Origin: a virus
IMG/VR virus record: IMGVR_UViG_3300042564_000781
Coordinates: 32,001 to 96,000 of that record
Length of the DNA stretch: 64,000 nt
Reading direction: 5' to 3' (one strand)
The translations under genes and the position numbers were made by a program. The notes under the pieces were generated by a model. That model searched no databases, had not been told where the DNA came from, and saw only the letters and a list, made by a program, of their open reading frames with translations. Position 1 is the first letter of the stretch, and every line of letters starts with the position of its first letter. Below are positions 42,310 to 59,412 of this stretch, in pieces.

Positions 42310-44382
42310 ATGGCACGTTTTAACACTACACAATCGACAATTTCAGTAACGGAGGCTACTACACTAACCTACGTACTTGATAAGTCTACAATTTTATTAT
42401 CCGGCACAGCAGGTTACACCTTAACATTATCGACCCCAGTACCATTTCCGGGCACAATTCAAAGTATATACAACTCCACAGGTGGCAATGTAACTATTCA
42501 AACATCAGCTGGAAATATAATTGGTAATGGATTTACGGCTGCTACTACTCAAATTATTCCAAATAATACCACTTATACTCTAACATCAAATGGCACAGAT
42601 TATATTATTACTAATAATCAAGGTGGTCCAATTTCGGTTACAGCTGGTACATTTAGTGGTGCATTAACTGCAAACAGTACAGTATCGTTAAGTCCGGCAA
42701 ACGCAAACGTAACAGCTAGTCCAACAGGATCTGGTACTGTTACTATTGCTCCAGCAACTGCTGGTACAATCAATAATGTAGCAATTGGCGGCACTACTAG
42801 AGGCGCCGGTAATTTTACTACACTAGATGCTAATGCAGCAGTGGGATTAAGCCCATCAAATGCTACTGTAACAATCAGTCCAACTGGTACTGGTACAGTA
42901 GCAATGAGTCCTGCTACTACCGGTAACATTAATAACACAAACATTGGTGGTACTACTCGGGCCGCAGGCGCATTTACCACACTAGGTTCAAATGCACAAG
43001 TGACCATGACTGGTGGCACAACCAGTACTACTACTGGCACTGGTCAAGTAGTTGTAACAGGCGGTGTAGGTGTCAGTGAAAATTTAAACGTTGGCGGTAC
43101 AATTACATCAGCATCCAGCGGCATACAAAATACCCCAATTGGTGGTACTACTCGAGCAGCAGGAGCATTTACTACATTAGCAGCTAACTCAACAATTACA
43201 ATGTCGGGTGCAGCTACTTTTTCTAGTACTATCATTGTACCTGAACCATCAAGTTCAACTCACGCAGCATCTAAAAACTATGTTGATACTAAAATTTCTT
43301 GGTCAACACCTTCAACAATTTATCTTACTAAAACGACTGGTTCAATGTCCTATGCTTTTGCAGCGGGCAACATTGCTGGAGATTCAGTTTCATATAGTTT
43401 AATATCTGGTTCAGTACCAGCAGGCATGAGCCTAGCATCAAATGGTCTTCTTAGTGGGACTCCGTCTGCAACATCAAATACTACTTACACGTTTACTTTA
43501 CGAGCAACTGGCGGATCGCCTACGCAAAACGTTGATAGGGCATTTACCTTTTATCTTATAATACCGCCTCCAGTAGGCCAAATTTTGTATGAAGGATCTC
43601 AAAGCGGTACCAATGGCGGTGTAACAGCATATACATGGGTTGCACCTGCTGGTGTTTCCACAGTGAGTGTGGCTGTAATTGGCGCAGGCGGTGGCGGCTA
43701 TTATGGGTGGGCTGTGTGCGGCGGATCAGGCGGCGGCATGGCATGGGGAGCAGGAATACCTGTCACCCCAGGGTCCAGTTACACAGTTCAAGTTGGAGAC
43801 GGTGGCTGCTGGAGCGGCAACGGTGGCGGATATTCATGTTTTCCAAACTTTATGGGCGGCGGCGGTCGTTGCGGATGTTGCCAAGGATGTTGCGCCTATG
43901 GCGGTTCGTACACTGCTGCCTGCGGTAGTAGTGGTATGGTAGCGTATCCAGATACAGCCGGAGGTGGCGGTGGCGCTGGCGGTTATGGCCCAACTAACTG
44001 TAATGCAGCCACTTCTGGATATCGAGGATGCTACGGCGGTGGTGGCAGCGCAACCAGCCACCACTCATCAACTCACGGCACAGGAGGCGGTGGCGGCACA
44101 GGCATCCTTGGCCAAGGTACAGACGGTGCATGTGGCAATCCCGGCACAGGCCATGGTACATCAGGCGGTGCCGGCCAAGGTGGATCCGGCGGAACTTGTG
44201 GCAAATACGGAGAACCATATTCAAACGGTCAGGGTAACGGATTTGCCTGCGGTGGCAACTATGGTGGCGGCGGAGGCGGAGGCGGAACCGGCCAAGGCGG
44301 CGGCTGGGGCGGCAAAGGTGCAGTCCGTATCATTTGGGGACCGGGCCGATCATATCCAAGCACTGGTACAGCTAATCAATAA
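42310..44382 (+). CDS. Tail fibre/adhesin with Ig-like domain and Gly/Cys-rich tip
   Basis: Three IGGTTR.AG.FTTL repeats, SGSVPAGMSLASNGLLSGTP Ig-like motif, then WVAPAGV..VSVAVIGAGGGG...GGKGAVRIIWG glycine-rich domain with 14 Cys. Confidence 0.75.
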   Translation: MARFNTTQSTISVTEATTLTYVLDKSTILLSGTAGYTLTLSTPVPFPGTIQSIYNSTGGNVTIQTSAGNIIGNGFTAATTQIIPNNTTYTLTSNGTDYIITNNQGGPISVTAGTFSGALTANSTVSLSPANANVTASPTGSGTVTIAPATAGTINNVAIGGTTRGAGNFTTLDANAAVGLSPSNATVTISPTGTGTVAMSPATTGNINNTNIGGTTRAAGAFTTLGSNAQVTMTGGTTSTTTGTGQVVVTGGVGVSENLNVGGTITSASSGIQNTPIGGTTRAAGAFTTLAANSTITMSGAATFSSTIIVPEPSSSTHAASKNYVDTKISWSTPSTIYLTKTTGSMSYAFAAGNIAGDSVSYSLISGSVPAGMSLASNGLLSGTPSATSNTTYTFTLRATGGSPTQNVDRAFTFYLIIPPPVGQILYEGSQSGTNGGVTAYTWVAPAGVSTVSVAVIGAGGGGYYGWAVCGGSGGGMAWGAGIPVTPGSSYTVQVGDGGCWSGNGGGYSCFPNFMGGGGRCGCCQGCCAYGGSYTAACGSSGMVAYPDTAGGGGGAGGYGPTNCNAATSGYRGCYGGGGSATSHHSSTHGTGGGGGTGILGQGTDGACGNPGTGHGTSGGAGQGGSGGTCGKYGEPYSNGQGNGFACGGNYGGGGGGGGTGQGGGWGGKGAVRIIWGPGRSYPSTGTANQ

Positions 44383-44405: not shown

Positions 44406-44960
44406 ATGAAAATATATGTAAAGATTGATGAGAATGGAGATCCTGCATCATACCCAATAACCCAAGAAAATTTAAATCATGTCTTTGGAATGGGTACCGA
44501 CTGGGATGACGAATTTGCCTTGACGCAAGGGTTTTCTGTAGTTAATAATTCTGAAATGCCCGCACTTGAAACATACACCGAAGTTACAAAAGGTGAAATT
44601 GTTAAAAACGCCCAAGGTAAAATTGAGCAGATGTGGTCTGTTACGGAAATTTCACGAGAAGAAAAAATAAGAAGATGGATTCTAGGCCCACGAGAATATT
44701 ACTTAATATCTTGCGACTGGACTCAACTCCCTGATGCTCCAATTAGTGATGAAGAAAGGGCACAATGGACAATTTATCGAGCAGCTCTCAGGAACATTAC
44801 CGATACTACTGATATTGATATCTTAAAAGATAGAATTGATGTACCCTGGCCAGAGCCGCCGACAAAACCGTCAAAAGATACCAAGTATGCAATAGCTCCA
44901 CCACCGCTACCAAGATTGGATCCACTTGCACTAATAATACCACCAGTAGAACCGGTATAA
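44406..44960 (+). CDS. Tail fibre assembly chaperone
   Basis: CDWTQLPDAP...W..YR.ALRNI...WPEPP motif typical of phage tail assembly chaperones; follows the fibre gene. Confidence 0.8.
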   Translation: MKIYVKIDENGDPASYPITQENLNHVFGMGTDWDDEFALTQGFSVVNNSEMPALETYTEVTKGEIVKNAQGKIEQMWSVTEISREEKIRRWILGPREYYLISCDWTQLPDAPISDEERAQWTIYRAALRNITDTTDIDILKDRIDVPWPEPPTKPSKDTKYAIAPPPLPRLDPLALIIPPVEPV

Positions 44961-44968
44961 TTATTAAT

Positions 44969-44997
44969 AAAAAACGGACTGTATAGTCCGTTTTTTT
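44969..44997. terminator. Bidirectional intrinsic terminator
   Basis: AAAAAA-CGGACT-GTAT-AGTCCG-TTTTTTT between convergent genes. Confidence 0.9.
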
Positions 44998-45001
44998 ATG
45001 A

Positions 45002-46171
45002 TCAAGAAAAATATTTGTACCCTAAATTTTTATCCCAGTTAATCCAGTGTCTAATGTACCATCTTGCAACAGACCTTTCTTGAATAATTTTTCCATTAGA
45101 AATACATGATTTTATATCTTTAACAGTCTCAGCCCATCGTTGATCAGTTTGCAATTTATTAGTAGTAGTAGCAACCGTAGTTTTCCAAAATTCACTATCA
45201 AAAGTTGAGCCACCGTGATATGCAAAATTAATAAAATTTTCAATATCCTGTGCAGCTTCAGTTAGTCTATAGTTAACATCATCTATTGAACATTGCCCAT
45301 AAATGTAATCAGTTAAGTTTCTCATAACTGTACTGTAAAAATAGCCGGATAGCGCCTCCATCGGTTCAAAGAACAATGCGGCATTACCATTTTTAATTAT
45401 GCGTCCATTAAAAAAACTTTTTGCATAGTAGCTGTTAAATTTAAACTCTTTTAGATTTAAATCTGTAGTATTAAAGATTTTTTCAATATCCGCTACTGCA
45501 TCTTCTCTTGAAGTAATTTTATCGTTATACAAGTAACCCCAACCTTGTCTAGTAGTTAACGGAATACCAAACATCCAACCGTTGGCATGTGCTTGATGAA
45601 TTGTAGTTCCCCATGTGCCTGGTTCATTTATGACGTTTACTAAGCAGTGATTAACAGGATCATTAATGACATTGTAATCTGTTAGGTCTTTTGGAGTTCC
45701 TCTACAGTCGATTACAAAATCAAAATGGTGGCTGACATTGTCAACAGTAACAGTTGCTAGATTAACAGTACTAGTAAGATCAGTAACTGATCCTTCTATT
45801 GTTTTAAATCTATCGCCCCATATTTTTTTAAATCGACCAAAACAAAAATTTTTTAATTTACCATTGTTAAAATGCATAGCATATTGCGGTGGATGCATTA
45901 GGGAAGTAAAGTCTGTATCTCTCCAATTCTTCCAAGTAACTCCTAATTTTAGTGTAGCATCTAGCTTGTCTGCATCTTCTAGTAGTGTAAAGCCAGCGCC
46001 TTCGAACAGCACTGTAGGAAATCCTGGATCCATCGATTCACCTATTTCTAGAATTTTTACATTCGGATCGTATATTGCAGTAACAGTGTCATCCTCATTA
46101 CCTAGCCAACGAAGTGCATGACTCAATGAGGTTATACCAGCAGTACCTACACCTATAACAGCTATTTTCAT
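45002..46171 (-). CDS. Flavin-dependent (tryptophan) halogenase-like protein, short form
   Basis: VIGVGTAG FAD motif, IGES, ATLKLG (catalytic Lys position), WMFGIPL, FFEPMEA. Confidence 0.8.
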   Translation of the reverse strand: MKIAVIGVGTAGITSLSHALRWLGNEDDTVTAIYDPNVKILEIGESMDPGFPTVLFEGAGFTLLEDADKLDATLKLGVTWKNWRDTDFTSLMHPPQYAMHFNNGKLKNFCFGRFKKIWGDRFKTIEGSVTDLTSTVNLATVTVDNVSHHFDFVIDCRGTPKDLTDYNVINDPVNHCLVNVINEPGTWGTTIHQAHANGWMFGIPLTTRQGWGYLYNDKITSREDAVADIEKIFNTTDLNLKEFKFNSYYAKSFFNGRIIKNGNAALFFEPMEALSGYFYSTVMRNLTDYIYGQCSIDDVNYRLTEAAQDIENFINFAYHGGSTFDSEFWKTTVATTTNKLQTDQRWAETVKDIKSCISNGKIIQERSVARWYIRHWINWDKNLGYKYFS

Positions 46172-46896
46172 AATTCTTTTCCAGTTGGGTTATCAAAGAT
46201 TACATAATTATGCCACTCGGGGTGATCATTATGCTCAAACAAATTAACAAATTCTGACAGAGAAATATCGAAAGCAAGGGTAATTCGTTCGGAGTTAGTT
46301 GTACTATGATGCGGAGTAGTGTAGTGCGGAATATTATGTTGAAATAGTGTAATTTTTCCTATCCGATTATAACTAACATATATTTCTGGATCGTTAATTT
46401 GATTTATTGGATTTATATAAACTGTACTAGTATCTTCACATTGCACTGTCACGTGCCCGCCTAAATATGACCATTCATCGGTTGAGTGGATATGCGGACA
46501 CATTTCTTCACTTTCTCGCATTACATTGGCCCAGCATTGTATCATAACATTTGATCTAGGCACATTATATGCTTGAAGAAATTCTAAATATTTCTCATGT
46601 ATTTGAACTTTTAATTTTTCTATCTCTGGTTCTGTCCATGAAAACACATTAAATGACTTCCAGCGCGAGGTTAAACTATCATTACCTAATCCGGTATACG
46701 CAGCAGTTGTTGGCGGAGTTGTGTTAATAATTATCTTTTCTTTTTCTAAGATTATATTTGCAATTTTTTTAAAATCTATACCCTCAATAAAGTTTTCAGC
46801 AAATATATAATGGTAAATTGGGGCAAACGGACTCTTAGGAGGTTTGCTTTTAAATTCTGAGAATTTCCAATTACTATCTCGTACAGTACCATTCAT
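46168..46896 (-). CDS. 2OG-Fe(II) oxygenase family protein
   Basis: CWANVMR...PHIH...IPHYT...ERITLAFD. Confidence 0.75.
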   Translation of the reverse strand: MNGTVRDSNWKFSEFKSKPPKSPFAPIYHYIFAENFIEGIDFKKIANIILEKEKIIINTTPPTTAAYTGLGNDSLTSRWKSFNVFSWTEPEIEKLKVQIHEKYLEFLQAYNVPRSNVMIQCWANVMRESEEMCPHIHSTDEWSYLGGHVTVQCEDTSTVYINPINQINDPEIYVSYNRIGKITLFQHNIPHYTTPHHSTTNSERITLAFDISLSEFVNLFEHNDHPEWHNYVIFDNPTGKEL

Positions 46897-46916
46897 AATA
46901 ACGTAGCCTTGTTGTA

Positions 46917-46968
46917 CAGTTACTTATCAGGAATTCTCACTCCTTGTTAACATCGTGATAAGTAACTG
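46917..46968. promoter_or_regulatory. 13-bp inverted repeat forming divergent late-promoter-like GATAAGTA motifs
   Basis: CAGTTACTTATCA 46917-46929 and TGATAAGTAACTG 46956-46968, 26-nt spacer, each reading outward toward ATG 46896(-) and 46984(+). Confidence 0.65.
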
Positions 46969-46983
46969 CATAGAGGAATACAA

Positions 46984-48573
46984 ATGCCTAAAAAAATCGA
47001 AAATATTGTAGTAGTTGGCGGCGGCAGCGCAGGTTGGATGACTGCTGCCACCTTAATTAACTTTTTTCCAAATAAGAAAATAACAGTAATAGAAAGTCCA
47101 GATGTTCCAATTGTAGGTGTTGGTGAAAGCACACTAGGCGGTATTAGGCATTGGATGCATGCCTTAGGAATAGACGAACAAGATTTTATGAAGTATACTA
47201 ACGCTTCTTATAAAATGAGCATTAAATTTACCGATTTTTATAATAAGGATGCAGGGTCATTTCACTACCCGTTTGGTACTCCTGTGGGAGATGACGTAGG
47301 AGGCGGTGTAAAAGATTGGCAGGCTAAAAAGGTATTTTATCCTGAAACCCCAGTTGAAGATTATTGCAGAACGTATTTTTCAACAATGCCAATCATAGAA
47401 AATAATAAATTTACTAATGATCCCACCGGCTTTGATAATTATAGACCTGACACAGATGTAGCATATCATTTTGAATCAGTTCTATTTGGTAAATGGTTAT
47501 GTGATCATTATTGTATTCCCCGCGGCGTAATCCGTATTCAAGATACTGTTTCCAACATTAAAACTTCAGACTCTGGCATAGAAAAATTAATTATGGAGAA
47601 TGGTGACGAAATAGTTGCTGATTTGTTTGTTGACTGCACTGGATGGAAAAGTATGCTATTAGGCGAAGCACTAGCGGAACCTTTTATTTCTTATGCAGAT
47701 ATGTTACCTAACAATCGTGCATGGGCTGTGCAAGTTCCCTACGTAGAAATTGAAAAAGAATTAGAACCCTACACAAATTGTACGGCTATCAATAACGGAT
47801 GGTGTTGGAATATTCCGTTATGGAGTAGACTTGGTACCGGGTATGTTTACAGTGATAAATTTGTTAGCCCTGAAGATGCTAAGGAAGAATTTAAACAGTA
47901 TCTAATGAGCGACAAAATGACTGTGCCACGAACTAAAGAGCAGGTAGAAGCGTTAACTTATAAAGATATTACTATGCGTATTGGAATCCACGAACGCACT
48001 TGGGTTAAAAATGTAGTTGCAATTGGATTAAGTGCAGGGTTTATTGAACCTCTTGAAAGTAACGGATTATTTACTGTACATGAATTCCTATTTAAAGTAG
48101 TTGCAACATTGGATCGAGAAGGATACGTAACACAATGGGATCGAGATGTATATAATTCTGCAACCTTGGAATTATATAACAATTTTGCAGAATTTGTAGC
48201 AATGCATTATGCATTAAGTATTAGAGATGATACAGAATATTGGAGAACAATTTCCAATAAAACATTTAGTCCAAAGATGACAAAACTAATACCAACTCTT
48301 GGAAAAGGGTTCCATGATCTAGCAAATAGAAAAATGTTTTATTTCAATCATGGAGATTTTGGCGGAATACATTGTGTAGCAACTGGTATGCATTTTTTTG
48401 TTATGAGTAAACTTAATACTATTTTTGCATCACATGTTTTTAGAACTGATGTTAAATCACAAGTAGATACCTTTGTTTCTAGACGACGCAATCTTCAGAC
48501 AAAATGGCAAGATGTTGCAAAAAATCTGCCTTCGTTATTTCAATATTTAAAAACAAACATACATAATGAGTGA
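46984..48573 (+). CDS. Flavin-dependent tryptophan halogenase family protein
   Basis: VVGGGSAGW, VGVGEST, ASYKMSIKF (PrnA K79 position), intact WCWNIP motif, GFIEPLES. Confidence 0.9.
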   Translation: MPKKIENIVVVGGGSAGWMTAATLINFFPNKKITVIESPDVPIVGVGESTLGGIRHWMHALGIDEQDFMKYTNASYKMSIKFTDFYNKDAGSFHYPFGTPVGDDVGGGVKDWQAKKVFYPETPVEDYCRTYFSTMPIIENNKFTNDPTGFDNYRPDTDVAYHFESVLFGKWLCDHYCIPRGVIRIQDTVSNIKTSDSGIEKLIMENGDEIVADLFVDCTGWKSMLLGEALAEPFISYADMLPNNRAWAVQVPYVEIEKELEPYTNCTAINNGWCWNIPLWSRLGTGYVYSDKFVSPEDAKEEFKQYLMSDKMTVPRTKEQVEALTYKDITMRIGIHERTWVKNVVAIGLSAGFIEPLESNGLFTVHEFLFKVVATLDREGYVTQWDRDVYNSATLELYNNFAEFVAMHYALSIRDDTEYWRTISNKTFSPKMTKLIPTLGKGFHDLANRKMFYFNHGDFGGIHCVATGMHFFVMSKLNTIFASHVFRTDVKSQVDTFVSRRRNLQTKWQDVAKNLPSLFQYLKTNIHNE

Positions 48574-49174
48574 AATAATTCCGTTATTTTCAGTTCCTGT
48601 ATATACAACAACTCTTGATATTCCGGAGCAGAAATTTCAGCACGTTCTTAATTATTGTAAAGAATTAAAATTTTATCAAAACGCCGGCCACAATTTTGCA
48701 AGCCACAATCGAGACATTTTGTCTGAACCAATGTTTGCAGAAATTAGGGAGTTGATACAAACCGAAATTAATCATTATACTAAAAATATAATGATGTGGG
48801 ATTCTAACGAATTTTATATTACACAGTCGTGGGTTAATGTTAACCCAAAAGATACCGAACATCATATACATTACCACTATAATAGCATTATTAGTGGCAC
48901 ATTTTATTTACAAACTAGCGATAATGACAATATTGTTTTTCATAGAAGATCTGAAGTGGCCCTATTAAATATGGAGAGAAGTTCTTTCAACATATGGAAT
49001 AGTGACTTTTGGAAAGTGCAGGTAAAAAATAACTCAATTGTGTTATTTCCGTCGCCGCTCTATCATAGTGTTGATAAGAATGAAACTGAATACGAACGAG
49101 TAAGTATTGCGTTTAATGTATTTGCTCGCGGTGAATTTGGAACTGAAAAAGGTTTGACCTATTTAAAACTATAA
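48566..49174 (+). CDS. 2OG-Fe(II) oxygenase (TIGR02466-like)
   Basis: QSWVN...HIHYHYNSIISG...LFPS.LYHSV...RVSIAFN. Confidence 0.85.
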   Translation: MSEIIPLFSVPVYTTTLDIPEQKFQHVLNYCKELKFYQNAGHNFASHNRDILSEPMFAEIRELIQTEINHYTKNIMMWDSNEFYITQSWVNVNPKDTEHHIHYHYNSIISGTFYLQTSDNDNIVFHRRSEVALLNMERSSFNIWNSDFWKVQVKNNSIVLFPSPLYHSVDKNETEYERVSIAFNVFARGEFGTEKGLTYLKL

Positions 49175-49178
49175 TTAT

Positions 49179-50120
49179 ATGAAACGATCAACAGTATTTT
49201 TAATTAATGGAGGTGCAGGAAGGGTATTATGTTCAATTCCTGCATTAGAGTTATACGAACAAGAAAATCCTAACGATGATTTTGTTATAATTGTCGAACA
49301 CGGGATAAATTTTTTTAAAGGACATCCAACACTATACAAGCGATGTTTTGAGTTTCATCATAAAAATTTATTTCATGATAAAATTAAAGATCGAGTCTAT
49401 AAATTCCCAGAACCTTATCAAGTATGGGAATACTATAATAATTTAGCCACAATTTCGCAAGCATTTGATATTGCTATAAACAACAAGGGAGTAAGGAAGT
49501 TGTTACCACCTACTATTGTATTATCTAATAGTGAACTAACTGGGTCTATAGAAACAATTAATCTTATTAAAAAAGACAAAGGAAATAAAAAAACAATAGT
49601 ATTTCAGCCATTTGGTAGAGGCACAAATCTGCACAATACTGGCATAGGTGTAGATACTTTTGGAAAATCATTTTTCATAGGAGATGTAGCAACAATTATT
49701 AGATCGTTGCAACAACAGTATATAGTTGTGTTGATGTGTGAGCACGACATTAACTTTAAAGAAGCAGGTTACGAAAATGTAGATACAGCCCAGATTACAG
49801 GGTTATCATTGCGTCAGTGGTTTGCCATTATTAATGCATCGGATTATTTTTTAGGATGCGATAGTGTGGGACAACATGCGGCATTTGGTCTAAATAAAAA
49901 AGCAACAGTTATACTAGGCAGCACATTTAAAGAAAATGTATCATATCCTGATTACGGCGGGTTTGATATTTTAGATTTTGGAGAAGGTAAAAAAACTTAC
50001 TCTCCTATAAGATTGTGCAATGATGAAGTTGCAGATTTAACTAACGAATCGATTATGAAATTAACTACTGATCAACTTAACCAAGTTGTACAATCTGTTA
50101 AAACAAATATAGAGGAATAA
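49179..50120 (+). CDS. Glycosyltransferase, GT9 (heptosyltransferase)-like
   Basis: N-terminal GGAGRVLCSIPAL and C-terminal FLGCDSVGQHAAFGL resembling the GT9 DSG..H.A.A motif. Confidence 0.7.
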   Translation: MKRSTVFLINGGAGRVLCSIPALELYEQENPNDDFVIIVEHGINFFKGHPTLYKRCFEFHHKNLFHDKIKDRVYKFPEPYQVWEYYNNLATISQAFDIAINNKGVRKLLPPTIVLSNSELTGSIETINLIKKDKGNKKTIVFQPFGRGTNLHNTGIGVDTFGKSFFIGDVATIIRSLQQQYIVVLMCEHDINFKEAGYENVDTAQITGLSLRQWFAIINASDYFLGCDSVGQHAAFGLNKKATVILGSTFKENVSYPDYGGFDILDFGEGKKTYSPIRLCNDEVADLTNESIMKLTTDQLNQVVQSVKTNIEE

Positions 50121-50123
50121 CAT

Positions 50124-50732
50124 ATGGACTATGAAATATTTCCACTCTTTCCGTCAGTAATATATAAAAAAAATCTTGCATTTGAACTTACACAGCCAGA
50201 ATTAAATGCTATTTACTCAACCGATATGCATTTACAGGCATTGGGTAATAATACATCATTTGATAGTAGATTATTAGATAATCCAGTATTTTCTAGGTTG
50301 AAGAAAGTTTGTTTAGATCATGCTCAAATATATTACACCGAAGTTATGAAATACGATTATAAATTGCATATGACAAACTCTTGGTTAAATGTAACGCAAG
50401 AAAATCAATCTCACAATGCACATAATCATAATAACAGCATAGTGTCCGGAGTATTGTACATAAAAACTAAAGATAGTACTCCGTCAATTACATTTTGTAG
50501 ATTAACTCCGCCATTACTACTAAATGTAAACGCAAGCGAATACAATTTTTTTAATTCATTAGAATGGGAATTACCTGTTGAAGATAATTGTATTGTTATT
50601 TTTCCATCACAATGTTTTCACTATGTGAAAAAAAATGTAACTTTGAATGAACGAATTTCTATTGCATTTAATACATTTGTTAAAGGCAATATTAGAGCTG
50701 AATGGTCTGGCGCAGATTTAGAGTTAGGATAA
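50124..50732 (+). CDS. 2OG-Fe(II) oxygenase (TIGR02466-like), paralog of 48566
   Basis: NSWLN...HNAHNHNNSIVSG...IFPS..FHYV...RISIAFN. Confidence 0.85.
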   Translation: MDYEIFPLFPSVIYKKNLAFELTQPELNAIYSTDMHLQALGNNTSFDSRLLDNPVFSRLKKVCLDHAQIYYTEVMKYDYKLHMTNSWLNVTQENQSHNAHNHNNSIVSGVLYIKTKDSTPSITFCRLTPPLLLNVNASEYNFFNSLEWELPVEDNCIVIFPSQCFHYVKKNVTLNERISIAFNTFVKGNIRAEWSGADLELG

Positions 50733-50735
50733 AAT

Positions 50736-52559
50736 ATGAATAAACAACCAGTATGGATTGCAGGATTTGCCAGAGGACATAACGCCGGGGTGTGTTTGTT
50801 AAAAGATGGTGAAATTGTATTTTCTGTAGAAGAAGAAAGGCTTACTAGATGCAAATACGACGGAGGTCCGTTTGCTAGTATACTTAAAATTTTAGAGTAC
50901 ACTGATAAACTTGATTATATGGTGTTTTCTCACACTACTCCCTTAGACACCGCAGGTAATATAGAATTTACTGGGGATAATATATATGTTGGGTTTGCTA
51001 GAAAACTAGGATTAATTAGCAGGGCACATAATTTTGGTAAACATCCTCAAGTTATTGACATGTGTAATATACATCATAAATTACATGCTGCATGTGCATT
51101 TTATCGATCTGGATGGGAGTCTGCCACTGCATTAGTAGTAGACGGCGCTGGAACATTTTTCCCTACAGTTATTGATAATATAGATATTACCACTTGGGAA
51201 ACAGAATCAATTTTTAGTTGTAAGTATCCTGCAGAAATTAAAACGCACTACAAACACCATGCTACTAAATTTAACATTATTCCAAAATTAGAACCTGCAA
51301 TGGACAGTGAGTGGATTAGCGAGCCCGGAAATACATACGAGGCATTGTTTTCAGACAGGGCAGGTATTGTAAAAGTGTACGAGGCTGCATCGCTGTATTG
51401 CGGATTTCAAGAAATTGAAGCTGGAAAAACTATGGGGTTATTTCCATACGGACAGCCATCTACTGAAATTCCTGCACTATTTATTGATGAAGGCCCTAGG
51501 TCATTATCTAATAGAAATTTAGTTATACCAACTTATCCGGCCGGAGCAAAAATTAATAAACTTGCAGCCCCTTATTTAGACAACATAGCTGTTGCAGACG
51601 AAGATGTTAGTTTACTTCAAAATAGACGAGATGTGGCATATGCTACACAAATTCAAACTCAAGCTGAAGTTGTTAAGCTAATTAAGAAAGCAGTTAGTAT
51701 GACAGGTAATAAGCGTGTAGTAATCAGTGGCGGCTACGGCTTAAACTGTGTTGCTAACTATCACTATCTTGATGCACTAAAAGATGATGGTATCGAAATT
51801 TATGTAGAGCCAATTAGCAATGATGCTGGCACTGCAATGGGTGCTGCTATGTTTTTATGGCGCCATGTAAGCCAAGATACGACTATTAGAAAATTTGAAA
51901 CTTTATACTTAGGACCTAAACATAATTATACTGTTGATTATGTTATAGACACAGCACATGCTAGTGATGTAGAAATTATTGATGCGTATTATAGTGATGT
52001 AGTTAATCTATTAATTAACAAAAATATTGTAACAATTTATCAAGGGCAATCTGAAAACGGCCCACGTGCGCTAGGTAATCGAAGTGTGCTATTTGATCCG
52101 CGATTTGTTGACGGTAAAGACTATGTTAATGAAGTTAAACATAGAGAATACTTCCGTCCTTTTGCTGGCAGTATTTTACATGAATACGCACACGAGTGGT
52201 TTGATCTAAGAGGTATGGATAGCAGCCCACATATGATGTATGCAGTAAATTGTCGACCTGGCATTGCAGAAAAGATACCTAGTATTATTCATGTTGACGG
52301 TAGTTGCCGCATACAAACTGTTACAGAACAACAAAATTTTCATTACTATAATTTAATTAAAGAATTCTATAATCAAACTGGATGTCCTATTATATTTAAT
52401 ACTAGTTTTAACTTAGGAGGAGAGCCATTAGTTGAAACACTAGAAGATGCTATTTGGACATTACAAAATTCTGATATTGAATATTTGTTTCTGCCAGAAT
52501 TTAATAAATTAATTACAGTAAAAATAAATCACAGGAAAGAGAATAACTATGTCAGATAA
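50736..52559 (+). CDS. Carbamoyltransferase (NodU/CmcH/TobZ family)
   Basis: EEERLTR.K, HH.LHAACAFY.S, DGAG, GPRALGNRS, VKHREYFRPFA, HVDGSCRIQTV, NTSFNLGGEP. Confidence 0.93.
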   Translation: MNKQPVWIAGFARGHNAGVCLLKDGEIVFSVEEERLTRCKYDGGPFASILKILEYTDKLDYMVFSHTTPLDTAGNIEFTGDNIYVGFARKLGLISRAHNFGKHPQVIDMCNIHHKLHAACAFYRSGWESATALVVDGAGTFFPTVIDNIDITTWETESIFSCKYPAEIKTHYKHHATKFNIIPKLEPAMDSEWISEPGNTYEALFSDRAGIVKVYEAASLYCGFQEIEAGKTMGLFPYGQPSTEIPALFIDEGPRSLSNRNLVIPTYPAGAKINKLAAPYLDNIAVADEDVSLLQNRRDVAYATQIQTQAEVVKLIKKAVSMTGNKRVVISGGYGLNCVANYHYLDALKDDGIEIYVEPISNDAGTAMGAAMFLWRHVSQDTTIRKFETLYLGPKHNYTVDYVIDTAHASDVEIIDAYYSDVVNLLINKNIVTIYQGQSENGPRALGNRSVLFDPRFVDGKDYVNEVKHREYFRPFAGSILHEYAHEWFDLRGMDSSPHMMYAVNCRPGIAEKIPSIIHVDGSCRIQTVTEQQNFHYYNLIKEFYNQTGCPIIFNTSFNLGGEPLVETLEDAIWTLQNSDIEYLFLPEFNKLITVKINHRKENNYVR

Positions 52560-53211
52560 TATGTCTAAGGTAAGATATAACGAACTTCCAAATATTGGTG
52601 TGTTGTCGGATCAAGTTCCGACTGATATGCTAGCCATGTTAAATTTAGAAATACAAGAACTAATCACAAGTGATTTTAAATCACAGCAACAATTCAACCA
52701 TAAGTTGCTCGGCCATATGAAACATGAATACGATCTATCTAATTGTATTTCTAGAATTGAACCTTATATTTTAAATTTAGTTAATATGTATGATCAACAA
52801 TGGAATTTGCTTGAACATTACGACGACTCTGGCAGTAGCATAGTTAAGTATCTAAAATTAACAGATTTATGGGTAAACATTCAAAAAAAACACGAATTTA
52901 ATCCTCCCCATGAGCATACGGGCATTGCAAGTTTTGTTATATGGATCAATATTCCATATGACTTAGCAGCTGAAGAAGCATATTTTCCTATAGTTAGCGG
53001 CGGCCCCAACGCTAATAGAACATCTAAATTTACATTTCATTATTCAAATTTAATGGGGCAACACCGACATTTTATGATTGAAGTAGATAAGAATCACGAA
53101 GGGACAATTATATTATTCCCGTCAAAATTAAATCACAGTGTAAATCCTTTTTACACAAGTGACGGTTACAGGATATCCGTGGCCGGAAATGTTAGGTCGG
53201 TGCTACCATGA
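52549..53211 (+). CDS. 2OG-Fe(II) oxygenase family protein
   Basis: LWVN.QKKHEFNPPHEH...LFPSKLNHSVNPF...RISVAGN. Confidence 0.8.
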   Translation: MSDNMSKVRYNELPNIGVLSDQVPTDMLAMLNLEIQELITSDFKSQQQFNHKLLGHMKHEYDLSNCISRIEPYILNLVNMYDQQWNLLEHYDDSGSSIVKYLKLTDLWVNIQKKHEFNPPHEHTGIASFVIWINIPYDLAAEEAYFPIVSGGPNANRTSKFTFHYSNLMGQHRHFMIEVDKNHEGTIILFPSKLNHSVNPFYTSDGYRISVAGNVRSVLP

Positions 53212-53834
53212 AAATAATAGACAACGCACTTTCCCTGTCAGTTCTTAATTTATTAGAAAATAAAATTTTAGAATATGACTTTCCTTGGCACTATAGTCCA
53301 ATTACGTATCCTTTTGGAAAACTTACTAGTACCAATCCTCACCCTTTTAATTTTACAAATTATCCAATTATTGACGGACAAACTCAGAATGACATCGGAG
53401 TATTACTACAACCTATACTGTTTGACTGTATAGATAAAATAGGGCAACCTGCAGATCAAATATTTAGAGTGCGAGTAGTACTACAGCCGCGTACTTGCGG
53501 CCAATATACTAACGATCCGCATATTGATCTACCATTTCCTCATCGAGTGGGAATATTATATCTAACTGATTCAAATTCTCCTACAGTAATATATAACGAA
53601 AAATACGATTTTAATTTAGACAAATCAAAATATGAAGATTTTGCTTCAGCAAGTTTTGAATATTTTAAAGAAAATTATCTAGGAAAGGAAACGGTATTAC
53701 AAACTGTAACTCCTCAACGAAATAGATTGTTAGGGTTTGATGGCGGACACTATCATGCGAGCGCGACTCCCAACGATGTAGATCGTCGCGTAATAATAAA
53801 TATTGCCTACGGAATGGCAAAGGATGCCCAATAA
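53208..53834 (+). CDS. 2OG-Fe(II) oxygenase family protein (HxD type)
   Basis: FPWHY...PHID...ILYL...NRL..FDG..YHAS..P...RRVIINI. Confidence 0.8.
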   Translation: MKIIDNALSLSVLNLLENKILEYDFPWHYSPITYPFGKLTSTNPHPFNFTNYPIIDGQTQNDIGVLLQPILFDCIDKIGQPADQIFRVRVVLQPRTCGQYTNDPHIDLPFPHRVGILYLTDSNSPTVIYNEKYDFNLDKSKYEDFASASFEYFKENYLGKETVLQTVTPQRNRLLGFDGGHYHASATPNDVDRRVIINIAYGMAKDAQ

Positions 53835-55316
53835 ATGACTTATAAAATTACAGTAGTAGGCGGAGGCACCGCCGGTGTTATGGCAGCAACATATTTCAAG
53901 TCTTATTGGGGCGACCTAGTTGATGTTACTATGATATATGATCATAAGAAACCCGGAATAGGTGTTGGCGAAAGTCTGACTCCTATTTTTGACAACTATT
54001 TAAAAACAGTTGGCATAACCACCGTTGAGCTGATACAGAACTGCAATGCAACTATTAAACTAGGTTTAAAATTTAAAAACTGGACGCACGAAGGCAGCGA
54101 GTGGCATCATAGCTTTCCAATTAATCAAGCAATTAATGCTACTGATCCTACAATTGCAGACTTTAATGCAGTAGATGCGTATGATATATTGCACGACCAA
54201 TATGAAAATTCATACAACTATGATAGTTTTTACTATGATAATAATTTAATATTCGGGGTAGATAATTTGTCTTATAGACATGCCATGCACATAGATGCTA
54301 ATCTTGTTGGAAGATATATTGAATCAAAATTCAAAGATAAAATTAATATTGTTGACGGCATTGTGCAACAAGTTAATGTTGAACATAGAGAAATTACAAA
54401 TTTAGTATTAGCATCGGGCGATACTATTACTAGTGATTTGTTCATAGATGCATCTGGTTTAGAGTATGCACTAATTAAACATTTAAATCCAGAATGGATT
54501 GACGTAACTGATCAGCTACCAACTAACCGTACAATCCCTAACCCATTGTTTAAAGATTTTGATTATATTCCCCCTTATACTACGGCTGACGCAACAAAGA
54601 ACGGATGGATACTAGATGTTCCATTATCTAATAGACGAGGTACTGGATATGTATATTCGTCAGAATTTACATCCGACGAAGAGGCTAAAAAAGACTTTAA
54701 CCAATGGCTATTAAAAACACACGGTACTGAATTAGCAAGTGATCGAGTTATTAAGTTTAATAACGGATACTGGAAGGAACAATGGATCGGTAACTGTATT
54801 GCTATTGGATTAGCAAGCGGATTTGTAGAACCTCTTGAAGCAACTAGTTTGCATAATACATACAGTCAATTAGATACTATAACTAGTACGCATTCATTAA
54901 TTAAATGTCAAATTGATTCCGATGCTTATAATATATTTTCAACACGTATGTATGAAAACAGTGTTGAGTATATTAGGTTTTTTTATCATACAAAAAGAAC
55001 CGACTCTGAATTTTGGAAATATTTAACTAACAATACACCAAAATGGTTACAAGATTTAGATACTAAGTTATTAAATGCATTTCCGGGGCCCCGAGATTTC
55101 CCTAAGATAGGAATGTTTGGTTCTAGCAGCTATACATCTATTGGGTACGGCCACGGAAGATTTACGAAACAAGGAATTGAAAGATATCTAACGTCTAAAC
55201 ACATGATGCAACATGCTAAACATGCATCGGAACAAATAAAGAAAATTAAATTAGATTTAAGAAAACACGCAGTTAATCACAAACAATGGATTGATTACAT
55301 TAAATCAAGTCAATGA
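53835..55316 (+). CDS. Flavin-dependent tryptophan halogenase family protein
   Basis: VVGGGTAG, IGVGESL, ATIKLGLKFKNW, GWILDVPL (degenerate WxWxIP), GFVEPLEAT. Confidence 0.88.
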   Translation: MTYKITVVGGGTAGVMAATYFKSYWGDLVDVTMIYDHKKPGIGVGESLTPIFDNYLKTVGITTVELIQNCNATIKLGLKFKNWTHEGSEWHHSFPINQAINATDPTIADFNAVDAYDILHDQYENSYNYDSFYYDNNLIFGVDNLSYRHAMHIDANLVGRYIESKFKDKINIVDGIVQQVNVEHREITNLVLASGDTITSDLFIDASGLEYALIKHLNPEWIDVTDQLPTNRTIPNPLFKDFDYIPPYTTADATKNGWILDVPLSNRRGTGYVYSSEFTSDEEAKKDFNQWLLKTHGTELASDRVIKFNNGYWKEQWIGNCIAIGLASGFVEPLEATSLHNTYSQLDTITSTHSLIKCQIDSDAYNIFSTRMYENSVEYIRFFYHTKRTDSEFWKYLTNNTPKWLQDLDTKLLNAFPGPRDFPKIGMFGSSSYTSIGYGHGRFTKQGIERYLTSKHMMQHAKHASEQIKKIKLDLRKHAVNHKQWIDYIKSSQ

Positions 55317-55749
55317 TATCAGTAACTGTTTGTATCTTGCTTTGAATAATTCGATTTCGCAAACTAAGATCTAGTCCTTTATGCACAGGTTTAGGTAAAC
55401 TTTCTAAATTAAACCATCCCCATGCAACGTGCTCGTCGCTGAGTTTGGGGATAAATTCTTCATCTACAATACAGAAGTATGTGTGAAAATTAAACATACT
55501 ATCATTGCTAACAAATCGTTCAAGTGGAATAGTCTTTTTAATATCAGGCATTGCACCTAATTCTTCTTCAATTTCTCGTTGTAGACCCTGCCACGCAGAT
55601 TCGTTAGAATGATTAGTACCCCCGACTAACCCCCAACGTCCTGCATGTTTACCTTCAGACTTTTGCAGCAATAAAAATCTTTTTGTTGTTCGTGCGCAAA
55701 TTAACGCACCGGAACAATCAATTAGTTCGTTTATAATTCTAACCTCCAA
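55300..55749 (-). CDS. Nudix hydrolase
   Basis: WGLVGG.....ES...GLQREIEEELG Nudix box; start codon uncertain (TTG 55749 or ATA 55734). Confidence 0.85.
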   Translation of the reverse strand: MEVRIINELIDCSGALICARTTKRFLLLQKSEGKHAGRWGLVGGTNHSNESAWQGLQREIEEELGAMPDIKKTIPLERFVSNDSMFNFHTYFCIVDEEFIPKLSDEHVAWGWFNLESLPKPVHKGLDLSLRNRIIQSKIQTVTDIIDLI

Positions 55750-58612: not shown

Positions 58613-58619
58613 AGTACAA

Positions 58620-58635
58620 TATTTAGCGATAAATA
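58620..58635. promoter_or_regulatory. Back-to-back late promoters GCTAAATA(-) and GATAAATA(+)
   Basis: TATTTAGC|GATAAATA imperfect 16-bp palindrome between divergent gp14 and gp13. Confidence 0.7.
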
Positions 58636-58650
58636 AGATGGGAGATACAA

Positions 58651-59412
58651 ATGTCAGACAATCCACAACAGGTTAAACAGCAAGTTTTTGATTATTGCCG
58701 CGCCATGCTAGGTGACGGTATGATTGACGTTGAGCTTGATCCAATTCATTATGAAACAGCATTAGATCGTGCGCTAACACGATTCCGCCAACGTAGTCCA
58801 AATGCAGTAGAAGAAAGCTACAGTTTCTTAACACTTGAGAAAGATAAAAATGATTACATACTGCCTGCAGAAATTATTAATGTTCAGTCTGTTTTTAGAA
58901 GAACATTGGGATCAAGAACTGGAGGTGGAACTGGAACAAACTTTGAGCCTTTCAATCTTGCGTACACTAACACGTATCTGTTAAACAGCACCATGCTGGG
59001 TGGTATTGCTACCTACTTTATGTTTGCTAGTTATCAAGAAATGATTGGTAAAATGTTCGGAGCATACATTGAATTCCAATGGATTCCTACAAGCCGCACA
59101 CTAAGAATACTACAACGTCCATTTAGTGAAGGCGAAGTAATAGGTCTACGCACACAGAATTTTAGACCAGATTATCTTATCATTGACGACATTTATGCTA
59201 AACAATGGATACGTGACTATTCACTAGCTAACTGTAAAATGATGTTAGGTGAGGCACGCTCTAAATTTGCATCTATCGCTGGACCACAAGGTGGCGGTGC
59301 GCTAAATGGTAATGACTTAAAGTCGGCTGGTAAAGAAGAACTAGCCGCATTAGACAAAGAATTAGAAACCTTAATCAGTGGTGGCACTGGTTATGCTTTT
59401 ATTATAGGTTAA
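58651..59412 (+). CDS. gp13: Neck protein (T4 gp13-like)
   Basis: YCRAMLG..MIDVEL, WIRDYSLA.CK..LGEARSKF, GG.ALNG, C-terminal F.IG. Confidence 0.8.
   Translation: MSDNPQQVKQQVFDYCRAMLGDGMIDVELDPIHYETALDRALTRFRQRSPNAVEESYSFLTLEKDKNDYILPAEIINVQSVFRRTLGSRTGGGTGTNFEPFNLAYTNTYLLNSTMLGGIATYFMFASYQEMIGKMFGAYIEFQWIPTSRTLRILQRPFSEGEVIGLRTQNFRPDYLIIDDIYAKQWIRDYSLANCKMMLGEARSKFASIAGPQGGGALNGNDLKSAGKEELAALDKELETLISGGTGYAFIIG

What the first reader, a model, noticed from the sequence alone, without database searches (positions are those of the whole stretch)
45002..55316. Late-expressed tailoring-enzyme island beside the fibre tip: candidate virion-modification system
Seen: ten consecutive genes encode 3 halogenase-like flavoproteins, 5 2OG-Fe(II) oxygenases, a GT9-like glycosyltransferase and a carbamoyltransferase, embedded between the fibre tip/chaperone and the neck/tail completion genes, visibly more AT-rich than the flanks and with no scaffold-building (NRPS/PKS) or nucleotide-synthesis gene. 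Known: 2OG oxygenases create hydroxyls; GT9 and NodU/CmcH/TobZ enzymes glycosylate or O-carbamoylate hydroxyls; a cyanophage flavin halogenase (VirX1) is active; phage carbamoyltransferases can also modify 5hmC in DNA. Inference: position and late-type promoters favour a hydroxylate-glycosylate/carbamoylate plus halogenate pathway acting on virion proteins or the host surface rather than general auxiliary metabolism.
Basis: partly seen in the sequence, partly recalled or inferred. Interest (0 to 1): 0.85.

Follow-up and report, generated by a model that had tools for sequence, protein, structure and literature searches.

The report
Phage fibre-tip-linked tailoring enzyme island
A giant uncultured lake-water T4-like phage carries ten intact tailoring-enzyme genes directly behind its glycine- and cysteine-rich tail-fibre tip; gene clusters of this kind are already known from cyanophages, and their target, possibly the phage's own fibre tip, has never been measured.

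Summary
Ten contiguous intact genes (45002-55316) encode 3 flavin halogenases (one close to VirX1), 5 2OG-Fe(II) oxygenases, a GT9-fold transferase and a TobZ/NodU-type carbamoyltransferase. They lie between a fibre tip plus chaperone and the neck genes, and are AT-rich.

- **GT9 plus carbamoyltransferase pair.** The pair is phage-specific and fibre-linked. The carbamoyltransferase lies within 3 ORFs of the GT9-like gene in 74 of 79 related viral loci. A Cys-rich tip gene lies within 10 kb in 74 of 79.
- **Halogenase/oxygenase array.** It is not tied to such tips: 2 of 30 GT9-less halogenase loci have one. It matches the published Syn9 gp40-54 type.
- **Late promoters.** These are not supported. 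A terminator hairpin separates the island from the fibre operon. The island's main control region lacks the late motif; one motif precedes the last halogenase.

Most likely (about 0.45) the pair puts a carbamoylated sugar on the fibre tip, and the merged array may add further modifications. Rivals are host-envelope remodelling, small-molecule tailoring, and hot-spot accretion.

This scan found the same system more than 12 times on other DNA, and the cluster types have been in print since 2010. This is a new member of a known kind.

The parts
42310..44382 (+). Fibre tip protein (690 aa). The N-terminal part has Ser/Thr-rich repeats. C-terminal residues 415-690 form a Gly_rich_2-type domain with 31-43% Gly and up to 9 Cys per 100 aa. 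Candidate acceptor.
   Evidence: Composition and sequence. Alignments A4/A5. 7 of 8 aligned C-terminal domains hit Pfam Gly_rich_2 (best 3.3e-12; the window's own 0.043 over positions 4-225 of 226). phrog_4474.
44406..44960 (+). Tail-fibre assembly chaperone (184 aa).
   Evidence: Pfam Phage_tail_APC 1.7e-12. phrog_4912 tail fiber assembly.
44961..45001 (.). Bidirectional terminator-like hairpin (A-run, 6-bp G+C-rich stem, T-run) between the fibre operon and the island.
   Evidence: Sequence. RNA fold -14.7 kcal/mol, z -3.56, 0 of 200 shuffles as good.
45002..46171 (-). Short flavin-dependent halogenase (389 aa). GxGxxG, the motif lysine and the EP.E motif are present. The tryptophan motif is degenerate (W.F.IP).
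   Evidence: Pfam Trp_halogenase 2.9e-29. phrog_2928 2.1e-68. PDB PrnA 1.2e-16. Motifs read.
46168..46896 (-). 2OG-Fe(II) oxygenase (242 aa), divergent member.
   Evidence: 2OG-FeII_Oxy_5 at 25.7 bits against a cut-off of 27. phrog_81 1.6e-18.
46897..46983 (.). Divergent control region of both island operons. It holds a perfect 13-bp inverted repeat (46917-46929 and 46956-46968) and no late motif.
   Evidence: only 2 perfect copies in the window. Arms conserved in L011 and L091 (one arm of L091 differs by one base) while the flanks drift. RNA fold z -5.25.
46984..48573 (+). VirX1-type flavin-dependent halogenase (529 aa). All motifs are intact, including W.W.IP.
   Evidence: Pfam 6.2e-102. VirX1 6qgm 5.5e-102, with the motif lysine aligned residue by residue.
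48566..49174 (+). 2OG-Fe(II) oxygenase, TIGR02466 / 2OG-FeII_Oxy_5 family (202 aa).
   Evidence: The nearest solved structures are uncharacterised proteins 2rg4 and 3bvc.
49179..50120 (+). GT9-fold glycosyltransferase of a phage-only subfamily (phrog_8954, 313 aa).
   Evidence: phrog_8954 5.4e-111. AF2 model pLDDT 89.4. Foldseek top hits are GT9: 3tov, WaaF, WaaC, TibC, TM 0.54-0.67. 27 of 31 relatives hit PF01075 weakly. Motif alignment to WaaC.
50124..50732 (+). 2OG-Fe(II) oxygenase, TIGR02466 family (202 aa).
50736..52559 (+). O-carbamoyltransferase of the TobZ/NodU/CmcH type (607 aa), with a Kae1-like and a YrdC-like domain.
   Evidence: Carbam_trans_C 6.9e-57 and Carbam_trans_N 8.6e-27. 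PDB 7xb6, NovN-type, GdmN and TobZ at 1e-52 to 1e-41.
52549..53211 (+). 2OG-Fe(II) oxygenase (220 aa).
   Evidence: 2OG-FeII_Oxy_5 3.9e-11. phrog_81.
53208..53834 (+). 2OG-Fe(II) oxygenase of the family mislabelled 'denV' (208 aa).
   Evidence: phrog_274 1.3e-32. H105-x-D107...H183...R194 conserved. 10 of 13 relatives hit 2OG-FeII_Oxy_3. Atlas lead.
53796..53802 (+). The only + strand T4-type late-promoter motif (ATAAATA) inside the island, 33 nt before the last halogenase.
53835..55316 (+). Flavin-dependent halogenase (493 aa). GxGxxG, the motif lysine and the EP.E motif are present. The tryptophan motif is degenerate (W.L.VP).
   Evidence: Pfam 1.9e-85. PDB tryptophan halogenases 1e-50. Motifs read.

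Best explanation
The island is two modules fused into one locus of the phage's host-recognition cluster.

Module A is the GT9-fold transferase (49179-50120) plus the TobZ-type carbamoyltransferase (50736-52559). This is a phage-only pair that travels with Cys-rich, Gly_rich_2-type receptor-binding fibre tips and their chaperones. Inferred mechanism: during virion assembly the transferase puts a sugar, probably a heptose from ADP-heptose, on the tip or a neighbouring fibre protein. The carbamoyltransferase then O-carbamoylates that sugar through carbamoyl-AMP.

Module B is a Syn9 gp40-54-type array of three halogenases and five 2OG oxygenases. In this lineage it has been interleaved with module A in the same operon. 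Inferred, with less weight: it hydroxylates and halogenates the same target (side chains or the sugar).

Shown: the enzyme families, intact motifs, operon structure and synteny. Inferred: the donor sugar, the acceptor, and every chemical step.
For: Pair linkage.
- In 79 viral loci anchored on the GT9-like gene, the carbamoyltransferase is 1-3 ORFs away in 74. The other 5 end 1-2 ORFs downstream.
- The 79 loci fall into 50 clusters at 90% identity and 15 at 70% identity of the GT9-like protein.
- Fibre-type genes lie within 10 kb in 77 of 79, and on both sides in 37.
- A Cys-rich ORF lies within 10 kb in 74 of 79, and 1-3 ORFs away in 66.
- In 8 loci the cassette is on the opposite strand to the nearest recognised chaperone.

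Co-variation with tips.
- In halogenase-anchored loci, Cys-rich ORFs go with GT9 (7 of 8) and not with its absence (2 of 30). Fisher p = 2e-5, but the loci are not phylogenetically independent.
- The genes upstream in typical loci alternate Gly_rich_2 tips and Phage_tail_APC chaperones. The window's tip carries the same domain.
- Two further tip-anchored relatives (73% and 61% identity) have the whole island next to the chaperone, in one of them on the opposite strand.

Wider distribution.
- Isolates of three genera (S-SSM7, S-CAM3, P-SSM2) keep the pair among fibre genes.
- Distant relatives of the transferase in 29 Vibrio phage records; in K479, the one inspected, it sits directly before a 1643-aa tail protein.
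- The subfamily was found in only 10 contigs of the 185,579-species genome set. 9 of the 10 carry phage fibre genes or the carbamoyltransferase; the tenth is 894 bases.

Chemistry.
- The fold matches include TibC, a protein O-heptosyltransferase.
- A 94%-complete 345-kb relative encodes an HldE-type kinase plus an adenylyltransferase domain.
- VirX1 has an open active site and no known natural substrate (passages of PMC8407142).
- No scaffold-building genes lie on the 120.7 kb held.
Against: - No modification has been observed on any virion.
- The island is separated from the fibre operon by a terminator hairpin. Its main control region lacks the late motif used before the structural genes, so co-expression with fibre genes is not shown.
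- GT9 enzymes normally act on LPS cores.
- The motif position that aligns with WaaC Asp13 is an invariant Arg in this family (weak alignment at 8.8% probability), so the chemistry may differ.
- No heptose genes lie on the part of this genome that is held. Only 21 of 79 related loci have them nearby.
- Halogenase/2OG arrays occur without Cys-rich tips in 28 of 30 GT9-less loci. 13 of 38 halogenase loci show no recognisable fibre or neck gene.
- The fibre-to-neck junction is a published hypervariable region (PMC7029224, passages), so position alone is weak evidence.
- All synteny counts rest on the best 80 of 521 relatives and on my own ORF calls and phmmer labels.
Confidence: 0.45

Rival explanations
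1. Host-envelope remodelling. The GT9-like enzyme and carbamoyltransferase add a carbamoylated (hepto)sugar to a host LPS or other surface glycan during infection, for example to block superinfection or to stop released virions re-binding debris. The oxygenases and halogenases serve other ends.
For: GT9 structures of LPS heptosyltransferases WaaC and WaaF are among the best fold matches. Published readings call these 'LPS genes' (PMC3037559, passages) and propose O-chain modification by transferases of the host recognition cluster (PMC7029224, passages). ADP-heptose genes accompany the pair in 21 of 79 loci. The Pseudomonas LPS inner core carries a carbamoylated heptose (recalled, from no call).
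Against: The pair co-varies with Cys-rich fibre tips, not with other LPS genes. The subfamily is phage-only. The position aligned with the WaaC catalytic Asp is Arg (weak). Marine picocyanobacterial LPS is reported to lack heptose (recalled, from no call).
Confidence: 0.2
2. Small-molecule tailoring. The halogenases and oxygenases, and possibly the transferases, modify a host metabolite or peptide into a halogenated, hydroxylated secondary metabolite, as proposed for the Syn9 array.
For: Iyer et al. 2010 proposed this for Syn9 gp40-54 (PMC2938197, passages). VirX1 halogenates small aromatics in vitro (PMC8407142, passages). Carbamoyltransferase relatives in the PDB act on antibiotics: TobZ, GdmN and the novobiocin enzyme. 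Halogenase arrays occur away from Cys-rich tips.
Against: No NRPS, PKS, precursor-peptide or export gene lies on the 120.7 kb held. The enzymes are interleaved with the fibre-linked pair. 25 of 38 halogenase loci lie by fibre or neck genes.
Confidence: 0.15
3. Hot-spot accretion. The fibre-to-neck junction tolerates insertions. On this reading the ten genes are unrelated auxiliary genes (2OG turnover, repair, assorted functions) with no common target.
For: The region is a published hypervariable island (PMC7029224). Island content varies widely among relatives. GC is lower than in the flanks. The 2OG genes have been read as 2OG or nitrogen-stress or repair genes (PMC3037559).
Against: Gene junctions are tight and operon-like. 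The order halogenase, oxygenase, GT9-like, carbamoyltransferase recurs in relatives whose VirX1-type halogenase is 54-92% identical to the window's. The GT9-carbamoyltransferase adjacency holds in 74 of 79 loci, including loci where the cassette is on the opposite strand to the nearest chaperone.
Confidence: 0.15
4. DNA or nucleotide hypermodification. Oxygenases hydroxylate a base, and the transferases glycosylate or carbamoylate it.
For: NUDIX and dNMP kinase genes lie nearby. A second, Kae1-only carbamoyltransferase-like gene sits in the replication module.
Against: The oxygenases are TIGR02466 and P4H-like families, not TET/JBP or AlkB. No base hydroxymethylase was seen on the 120.7 kb held. 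The pair is tied to fibre tips, not to replication genes. NUDIX abuts gp15 in relatives whatever the island content.
Confidence: 0.05

Closest known systems
Cyanomyovirus 'LPS gene' string T4-GC 302-308 (P-SSM2 PSSM2_307-313, S-SSM7 SSSM7_120-133, S-CAM3 gp154-148; Sullivan et al. 2010, PMC3037559)
   Same: Homologues of the GT9-like protein (42-47% identity) and of the carbamoyltransferase (46-59%) are adjacent and lie among fibre genes before gp13.
   Different: Those strings carry ADP-heptose synthesis genes, a cupin and an epimerase. None of these is on the 120.7 kb held here. This island carries three halogenases and five oxygenases instead.
Syn9/Syn10 gp40-gp54 array: two Trp-type halogenases (one is VirX1) plus ten tandem dioxygenases (Iyer et al. 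2010, PMC2938197)
   Same: Tandem halogenases and several unrelated 2OG oxygenases lie downstream of a fibre gene. The window's 529-aa halogenase matches VirX1 at 5.5e-102.
   Different: The part of Syn9 read (gp34-gp61) shows no annotated GT9-like gene or carbamoyltransferase, and Syn9 is not among the records matching either protein. Here the two modules are interleaved in one operon. Published reading: secondary metabolites, not virion proteins.
Bacterial autotransporter heptosyltransferases TibC/AAH (PDB 4rap, 4rb4)
   Same: GT-B/GT9-like fold, TM 0.54-0.61 to the model. They are the precedent for O-heptosylation of a repetitive surface adhesin.
   Different: About 10-12% identity. The phage protein is about 70-80 residues shorter than the TibC chains matched (313 aa against 383-390). 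TibC's iron site and dodecamer were not tested. No acceptor is shown.
LPS heptosyltransferases WaaC/WaaF (GT9)
   Same: Best fold class. The C-terminal D-(S/T)-x-G-x-H nucleotide-sugar motif aligns.
   Different: The window's protein fails Pfam PF01075. The position aligned with WaaC Asp13 is an invariant Arg (weak alignment; the role of Asp13 is recalled). The subfamily is phage-only.
Host recognition cluster of pelagi- and cyanomyophages (Zaragoza-Solas et al. 2020, PMC7029224)
   Same: A hypervariable block between the fibre genes and the neck genes that mixes fibres with transferases.
   Different: That paper proposes host O-chain modification. It does not describe the pairing with Cys-rich tips in the passages read.
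Virus-encoded modification of virion fibres: mimivirus collagen hydroxylase/glycosyltransferase, mycobacteriophage virion glycosylation (recalled, from no call)
   Same: Hydroxylation and/or glycosylation of the virus's own surface proteins by enzymes encoded beside structural genes.
   Different: Unrelated enzyme families. No halogenation or carbamoylation is known there. Nothing is shown here.

Membership tests
Flavin-dependent (Trp-type) halogenases | Pfam Trp_halogenase above the gathering score | tested here: met
   102.7, 342.2 and 287.9 bits against a cut-off of 21 for the three proteins.
Flavin-dependent (Trp-type) halogenases | N-terminal GxGxxG and the chloramine-forming lysine | tested here: met
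   GxGxxG was read in all three. The lysine of the 529-aa protein aligns with the VirX1 motif lysine. In the other two the same motif was read by eye only.
Flavin-dependent (Trp-type) halogenases | WxWxIP motif (motif as given in PMC8407142) | tested here: inconclusive
   Strict in the 529-aa protein. Degenerate in the 389-aa (W.F.IP) and 493-aa (W.L.VP) proteins.
2OG-Fe(II) oxygenase superfamily | Pfam model above cut-off | tested here: inconclusive
   Met for 48566, 50124 and 52549 (71.5, 66.6 and 43.7 bits against 27). 46168 scores 25.7 against 27. 53208 has no hit.
2OG-Fe(II) oxygenase superfamily | Metal triad H-x-D...H and the 2OG-binding Arg in the 53208-53834 family | tested here: met
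   H105, D107 and H183 are nearly invariant and R194 is invariant in 13 sequences. 10 of 13 hit 2OG-FeII_Oxy_3.
Glycosyltransferase family 9 | Pfam PF01075 match | tested here: not met
   No hit for the window's protein at E <= 1. 27 of 31 relatives hit weakly, best 6.2e-6. A profile against PDB sequences found nothing.
Glycosyltransferase family 9 | GT-B fold closest to GT9 structures | tested here: met
   Most top Foldseek hits are GT9 (3tov, 1psw, 2gt1, 4rap; one NDH-PSI chain at rank 6), E 1e-8 to 5e-7, TM 0.54-0.67.
Glycosyltransferase family 9 | Catalytic Asp of the N-terminal loop (WaaC Asp13; its role is recalled) | tested here: inconclusive
   hhalign places an invariant Arg there, but the alignment probability is 8.8%.
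BAHT protein heptosyltransferases (TibC/AAH) | Iron-binding site, dodecamer, adhesin acceptor | not tested
TobZ/NodU/CmcH O-carbamoyltransferases | Kae1-like and YrdC-like domains both present | tested here: met
   Carbam_trans_N 94.9 bits against 24. Carbam_trans_C 192.1 bits against 27. Solved relatives at 1e-52 to 1e-41.
NodU equivalog (NCBIfam NF041651) | Score above the equivalog cut-off | tested here: not met
   136.2 bits against a cut-off of 1000.
Cyanomyovirus T4-GC 302-308 string | GT9-like gene next to the carbamoyltransferase among fibre genes | tested here: met
   In the window one oxygenase gene lies between them.
Cyanomyovirus T4-GC 302-308 string | ADP-heptose synthesis genes in the string | tested here: not met
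   None on the 120.7 kb held, which is rated 33% complete. A 345-kb relative has a kinase and an adenylyltransferase elsewhere in its genome.
Syn9 gp40-54-type array | Tandem Trp-type halogenases with several distinct dioxygenases | tested here: met

The most novel reading that the evidence does not exclude
All ten enzymes act on the phage's own receptor-binding tip. The Gly/Cys-rich Gly_rich_2 domain would leave the cell hydroxylated, halogenated on Trp/Tyr, glycosylated and carbamoylated. That would be a ribosomal adhesin tailored like a natural product, the first halogenated virion protein, and the long-sought natural substrate of VirX1-type viral halogenases.
Probability: 0.15. Interest if true: 0.85.

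Novelty: new member of a known kind. Interest (0 to 1): 0.45.

Why it matters
Three puzzles remain open: cyanophage 'LPS genes' (2005-2010), the Syn9 dioxygenase/halogenase array (2010) and the viral halogenase VirX1 (2019). None has a known target. My searches of the held papers found none that reports phage fibre heptosylation or a natural VirX1 substrate.

The linkage shown here points to one concrete, cheap experiment: mass spectrometry of the Gly_rich_2 fibre tips of cultured carriers. If the tips are decorated, post-translational chemistry would become a new variable in phage host range and in the arms race at the cell surface of the ocean's and lakes' main primary producers.

The genes themselves are ordinary members of published cluster types, and this scan has reported the same system repeatedly.

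Tried and rejected
Searches that gave nothing useful.
- Near-identity DNA search of the island in the phage collection: no match.
- Sequence searches of the GT9-like protein, its profile and the fifth oxygenase against PDB sequences: nothing meaningful.
- tblastn of the tip domain against phages: only 3 short Pelagibacter-phage matches, probably because of the low-complexity filter.
- Anchoring viral loci on the tip domain: only 2 full-length relatives out of 10 loci.
- Fused (longer) forms of the GT9-like protein: none found, which is weak evidence.
- The unknown 270-320-aa ORFs that lie between the pair in many relatives: unrelated to the GT9-like family by hhalign, with no Pfam or PHROG hit.
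- Sigma-70-type promoter scan: at chance level, 77 found against 74.6 expected.
- Aeromonas phage HJ05 context: all genes hypothetical.

Expression.
- No RNA holder was listed among 24 lake-water runs.
- Doron 2016 (Syn9) and Lin 2016 (P-SSM2) are not held.
- The supplement of PMC7238727 lists ortholog groups. My term look-ups in it found no expression class for these genes.

Tools not available.
- Complex prediction of the transferase with the tip domain: not available.
- Structure prediction of the tip domain: not accepted. The tip's fold therefore rests on Pfam only.

Reading rejected.
- The reading of 53208-53834 as T4 endonuclease V.

Full report
**What the window is.**
The window is bases 32001-96000 of a 120,667-base IMG/VR virus record that CheckV rates 33% complete. 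It encodes T4-type baseplate, fibre, neck, sheath, terminase and replication genes. Its nearest cultured relatives, at under 60% protein identity, are the cyanomyoviruses S-SSM7, Sf-FS3, S-CAM3, S-CAM1 and P-SSM2. The island DNA occurs in 24 lake-water DNA runs of 24 studies, 7 of them marked as possible sources. A relative with the same island type is a 345-kb record rated 94% complete. This is therefore a giant freshwater T4-like phage. Its host is not shown.

**The observation.**
Ten ORFs fill 45002-55316: two on the minus strand, then eight on the plus strand with overlapping or 1-5-base junctions.
- Pfam, PHROGs and NCBIfam give three Trp-type flavin halogenases, four clear or near-threshold 2OG-Fe(II) oxygenases and a two-domain carbamoyltransferase.
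- The 529-aa halogenase matches VirX1 at E 5.5e-102, with the motif lysine aligned.
- The 208-aa protein at 53208 falls in phrog_274, labelled 'DNA endonuclease V'. A 13-sequence alignment keeps H-x-D...H...R, and 10 of 13 members hit 2OG-FeII_Oxy_3. It is a fifth oxygenase, and the label is a historical misnomer.
- The 313-aa protein at 49179 has no Pfam hit. 27 of 31 relatives hit Glyco_transf_9 weakly. Its AlphaFold model (pLDDT 89.4) finds GT9 structures first: 3tov, WaaF, WaaC, and the protein heptosyltransferase TibC, at TM 0.54-0.67.
- GC is 0.31-0.38 in the island, against 0.42-0.49 just upstream and about 0.40 overall.

**The flanks.**
The 690-aa protein at 42310 ends in a 276-residue domain with 31-43% Gly and up to 9 Cys per 100 residues. 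Seven of eight aligned copies of this domain hit Pfam Gly_rich_2; the window's own copy scores E 0.043 over almost the whole profile. A Phage_tail_APC chaperone follows it. To the right lie NUDIX, gp15, a structural protein and gp13.

**Transcription signals.**
ATAAATA is depleted in the window: 11 sites against 29 expected. Eight plus-strand sites lie 6-112 nt before plus-strand starts, mostly of structural genes, so the phage does use the T4-type late motif. Inside the island the motif occurs on the plus strand once, 33 nt before the last halogenase; one more match lies on the minus strand at 51478.

The 87-bp divergent region that must hold the promoters of both island operons has no late motif. 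It carries instead a perfect 13-bp inverted repeat that is unique in the window. Relatives keep it (one arm of L091 differs by one base) while their flanks drift, and it folds well as RNA (z -5.25). Between the chaperone and the island lies a bidirectional terminator-like hairpin (z -3.56).

Among relatives, 1 of 41 VirX1-type halogenase ORFs and 23 of 79 GT9-like ORFs have the motif within 100 nt upstream, against 36 of 59 for a small fibre gene. 'Late-expressed' is therefore not shown for this island. I could not reach the two transcriptome papers that might settle it for relatives.

**Synteny of the transferase pair.**
A pattern scan of IMG/VR with the GT9-like alignment confirmed 521 relatives, and the best 80 loci were kept. 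I called ORFs and labelled them by phmmer against proteins of the window, S-SSM7 and P-SSM2.
- 79 loci had the GT9-like ORF.
- 74 of them had the carbamoyltransferase 1-3 ORFs away. The other 5 end within 2 ORFs.
- 77 had fibre-type genes, 37 of them on both sides.
- 21 had heptose-synthesis genes.
- Only 2 had a halogenase.
- The 79 loci represent 50 clusters at 90% identity and 15 at 70% identity.

The genes upstream of the pair are alternating Gly_rich_2 tips and tail-fibre chaperones. A Cys-rich ORF (7 or more Cys in some 100 residues) lies in 74 of 79 loci, and 1-3 ORFs from the transferase in 66.

The subfamily appears in only 10 contigs of the 185,579-species genome collection. 9 of the 10 carry phage fibre genes or the carbamoyltransferase and are binned into unrelated MAGs; the tenth is an 894-base fragment. 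Distant relatives of the transferase occur in 29 Vibrio phage records; in K479, the one inspected, the gene sits directly before a giant tail protein, with no carbamoyltransferase.

**Synteny of the halogenase array.**
38 loci were anchored on the VirX1-type halogenase.
- 25 show fibre or neck genes.
- 20 show window-type oxygenases.
- 15 show a carbamoyltransferase.
- 8 show the GT9-like gene.
- 8 have a chaperone directly beside a halogenase.

Cys-rich ORFs occur in 7 of the 8 loci with GT9 but in 2 of the 30 without (Fisher p = 2e-5; the loci are related, so this is not a clean probability).

The full combination of halogenase, oxygenase, GT9-like gene and carbamoyltransferase goes with the long tip690-type tip. 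Across the two locus sets, which share contigs, 9 of 10 locus rows with both a halogenase and GT9 hold that tip, and the tenth is cut at the chaperone. Two further tip-anchored relatives show the same, in one of them with the transferase-halogenase block on the opposite strand. All of these may be one clade.

**Reading.**
The island is two modules.
- The transferase pair is a constant companion of Cys-rich Gly_rich_2 tips in many lineages, whatever the orientation. I think it most likely decorates the tip or a neighbouring fibre protein with a carbamoylated sugar.
- Heptose is the best guess for that sugar, for four reasons: the GT9 fold, the conserved D-S-x-G-x-H motif, nearby heptose genes in 21 of 79 loci, and HldE-type genes in the 345-kb relative. 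This genome's held part has none.
- The family carries an invariant Arg where WaaC has Asp13 (weak alignment; the role of Asp13 is recalled). The acceptor chemistry may therefore differ from LPS enzymes.
- The halogenase/oxygenase array is the Syn9 gp40-54 type. It is not tip-dependent. Its interleaving with the pair here suggests, but does not show, a shared target.

**Literature.**
Sullivan et al. 2010 list these genes and call the heptose set 'LPS genes' of unknown role (passages). Iyer et al. 2010 describe the Syn9 array and propose secondary metabolites (passages). Zaragoza-Solas et al. 2020 define the host recognition cluster and propose host O-chain change (passages). A 2021 review says VirX1 has an open active site and lists no gene cluster for it (passages). 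My searches found no paper that reports a modified cyanophage fibre or phage fibre heptosylation.

**Earlier notes of this scan.**
Notes from this scan describe the same system on more than 12 other stretches of DNA, with the same reading. They gave me the Cys-rich-tip lead and the pointers to these papers, which I tested or read myself.

**Verdict.**
This is a new freshwater member of published cluster types, with an unproven but sharply testable target.

Noticed in passing
window 46917-46929 and 46956-46968: Perfect 13-bp inverted repeat in the divergent control region of the island. It is unique in the window, kept in two relatives (one arm of L091 differs by one base) while their flanks drift, and forms a strong RNA hairpin (z -5.25). 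It could be an operator or a leader structure; which is unknown.
   Followed up: partly
window 53208-53834 and 60125-60640; S-SSM7 SSSM7_124, P-SSM2 PSSM2_324: The cyanophage gene family annotated 'denV / DNA endonuclease V' (phrog_274) has the 2OG-Fe(II) oxygenase triad and hits 2OG-FeII_Oxy_3. The public label looks wrong.
   Followed up: yes
G000:C1:116800-117744 (outside the window): A 314-aa protein with only the Kae1-like N-domain of carbamoyltransferases, lying between the primase and the gp41-like helicase. S-SSM7 has a similar short 'nol' gene inside its island.
   Followed up: no
window 55300-55749: A NUDIX hydrolase gene abuts gp15 at the edge of the fibre cluster, here and in many relatives, whatever the island content. 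A link to ADP-sugar turnover is conceivable but untested.
   Followed up: partly
window 22980-31088 and 31138-41946: Two giant fibre proteins (2702 and 3602 aa) with CBM_5_12 carbohydrate-binding repeats near the N-terminus. A third CBM_5_12 lies in the 451-aa structural protein at 57311-58666.
   Followed up: no
L016:9128-9961 and similar loci: A carbon-nitrogen hydrolase (nitrilase-superfamily) gene sits directly before the GT9-like gene in many relatives. It is absent from this window.
   Followed up: no
L016:10929-11861, L036:10998-12799, L023:8734-9552: Conserved 270-320-aa ORFs between the GT9-like gene and the carbamoyltransferase in 40 of 79 loci. They have no Pfam or PHROG hit and no relation to the GT9-like family.
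   Followed up: partly
L132-L141: Ten contigs filed under bacterial and archaeal MAGs (Chitinophagales, Neomarinimicrobiota, Methanobacteriota and others); nine carry phage fibre genes or the carbamoyltransferase and one is an 894-base fragment. This looks like mis-binned phage DNA.
   Followed up: partly
window 46984-48573: The VirX1-type halogenase gives weak NCBIfam hits, far below cut-off, to QhpG and LodB, which I recall as flavoenzymes that modify protein-bound tryptophan. This is only a reminder that this fold can take protein substrates.
   Followed up: no
L073:17107-17979: A radical SAM gene and further P4H-type oxygenases follow the transferase pair in one lineage.
   Followed up: no
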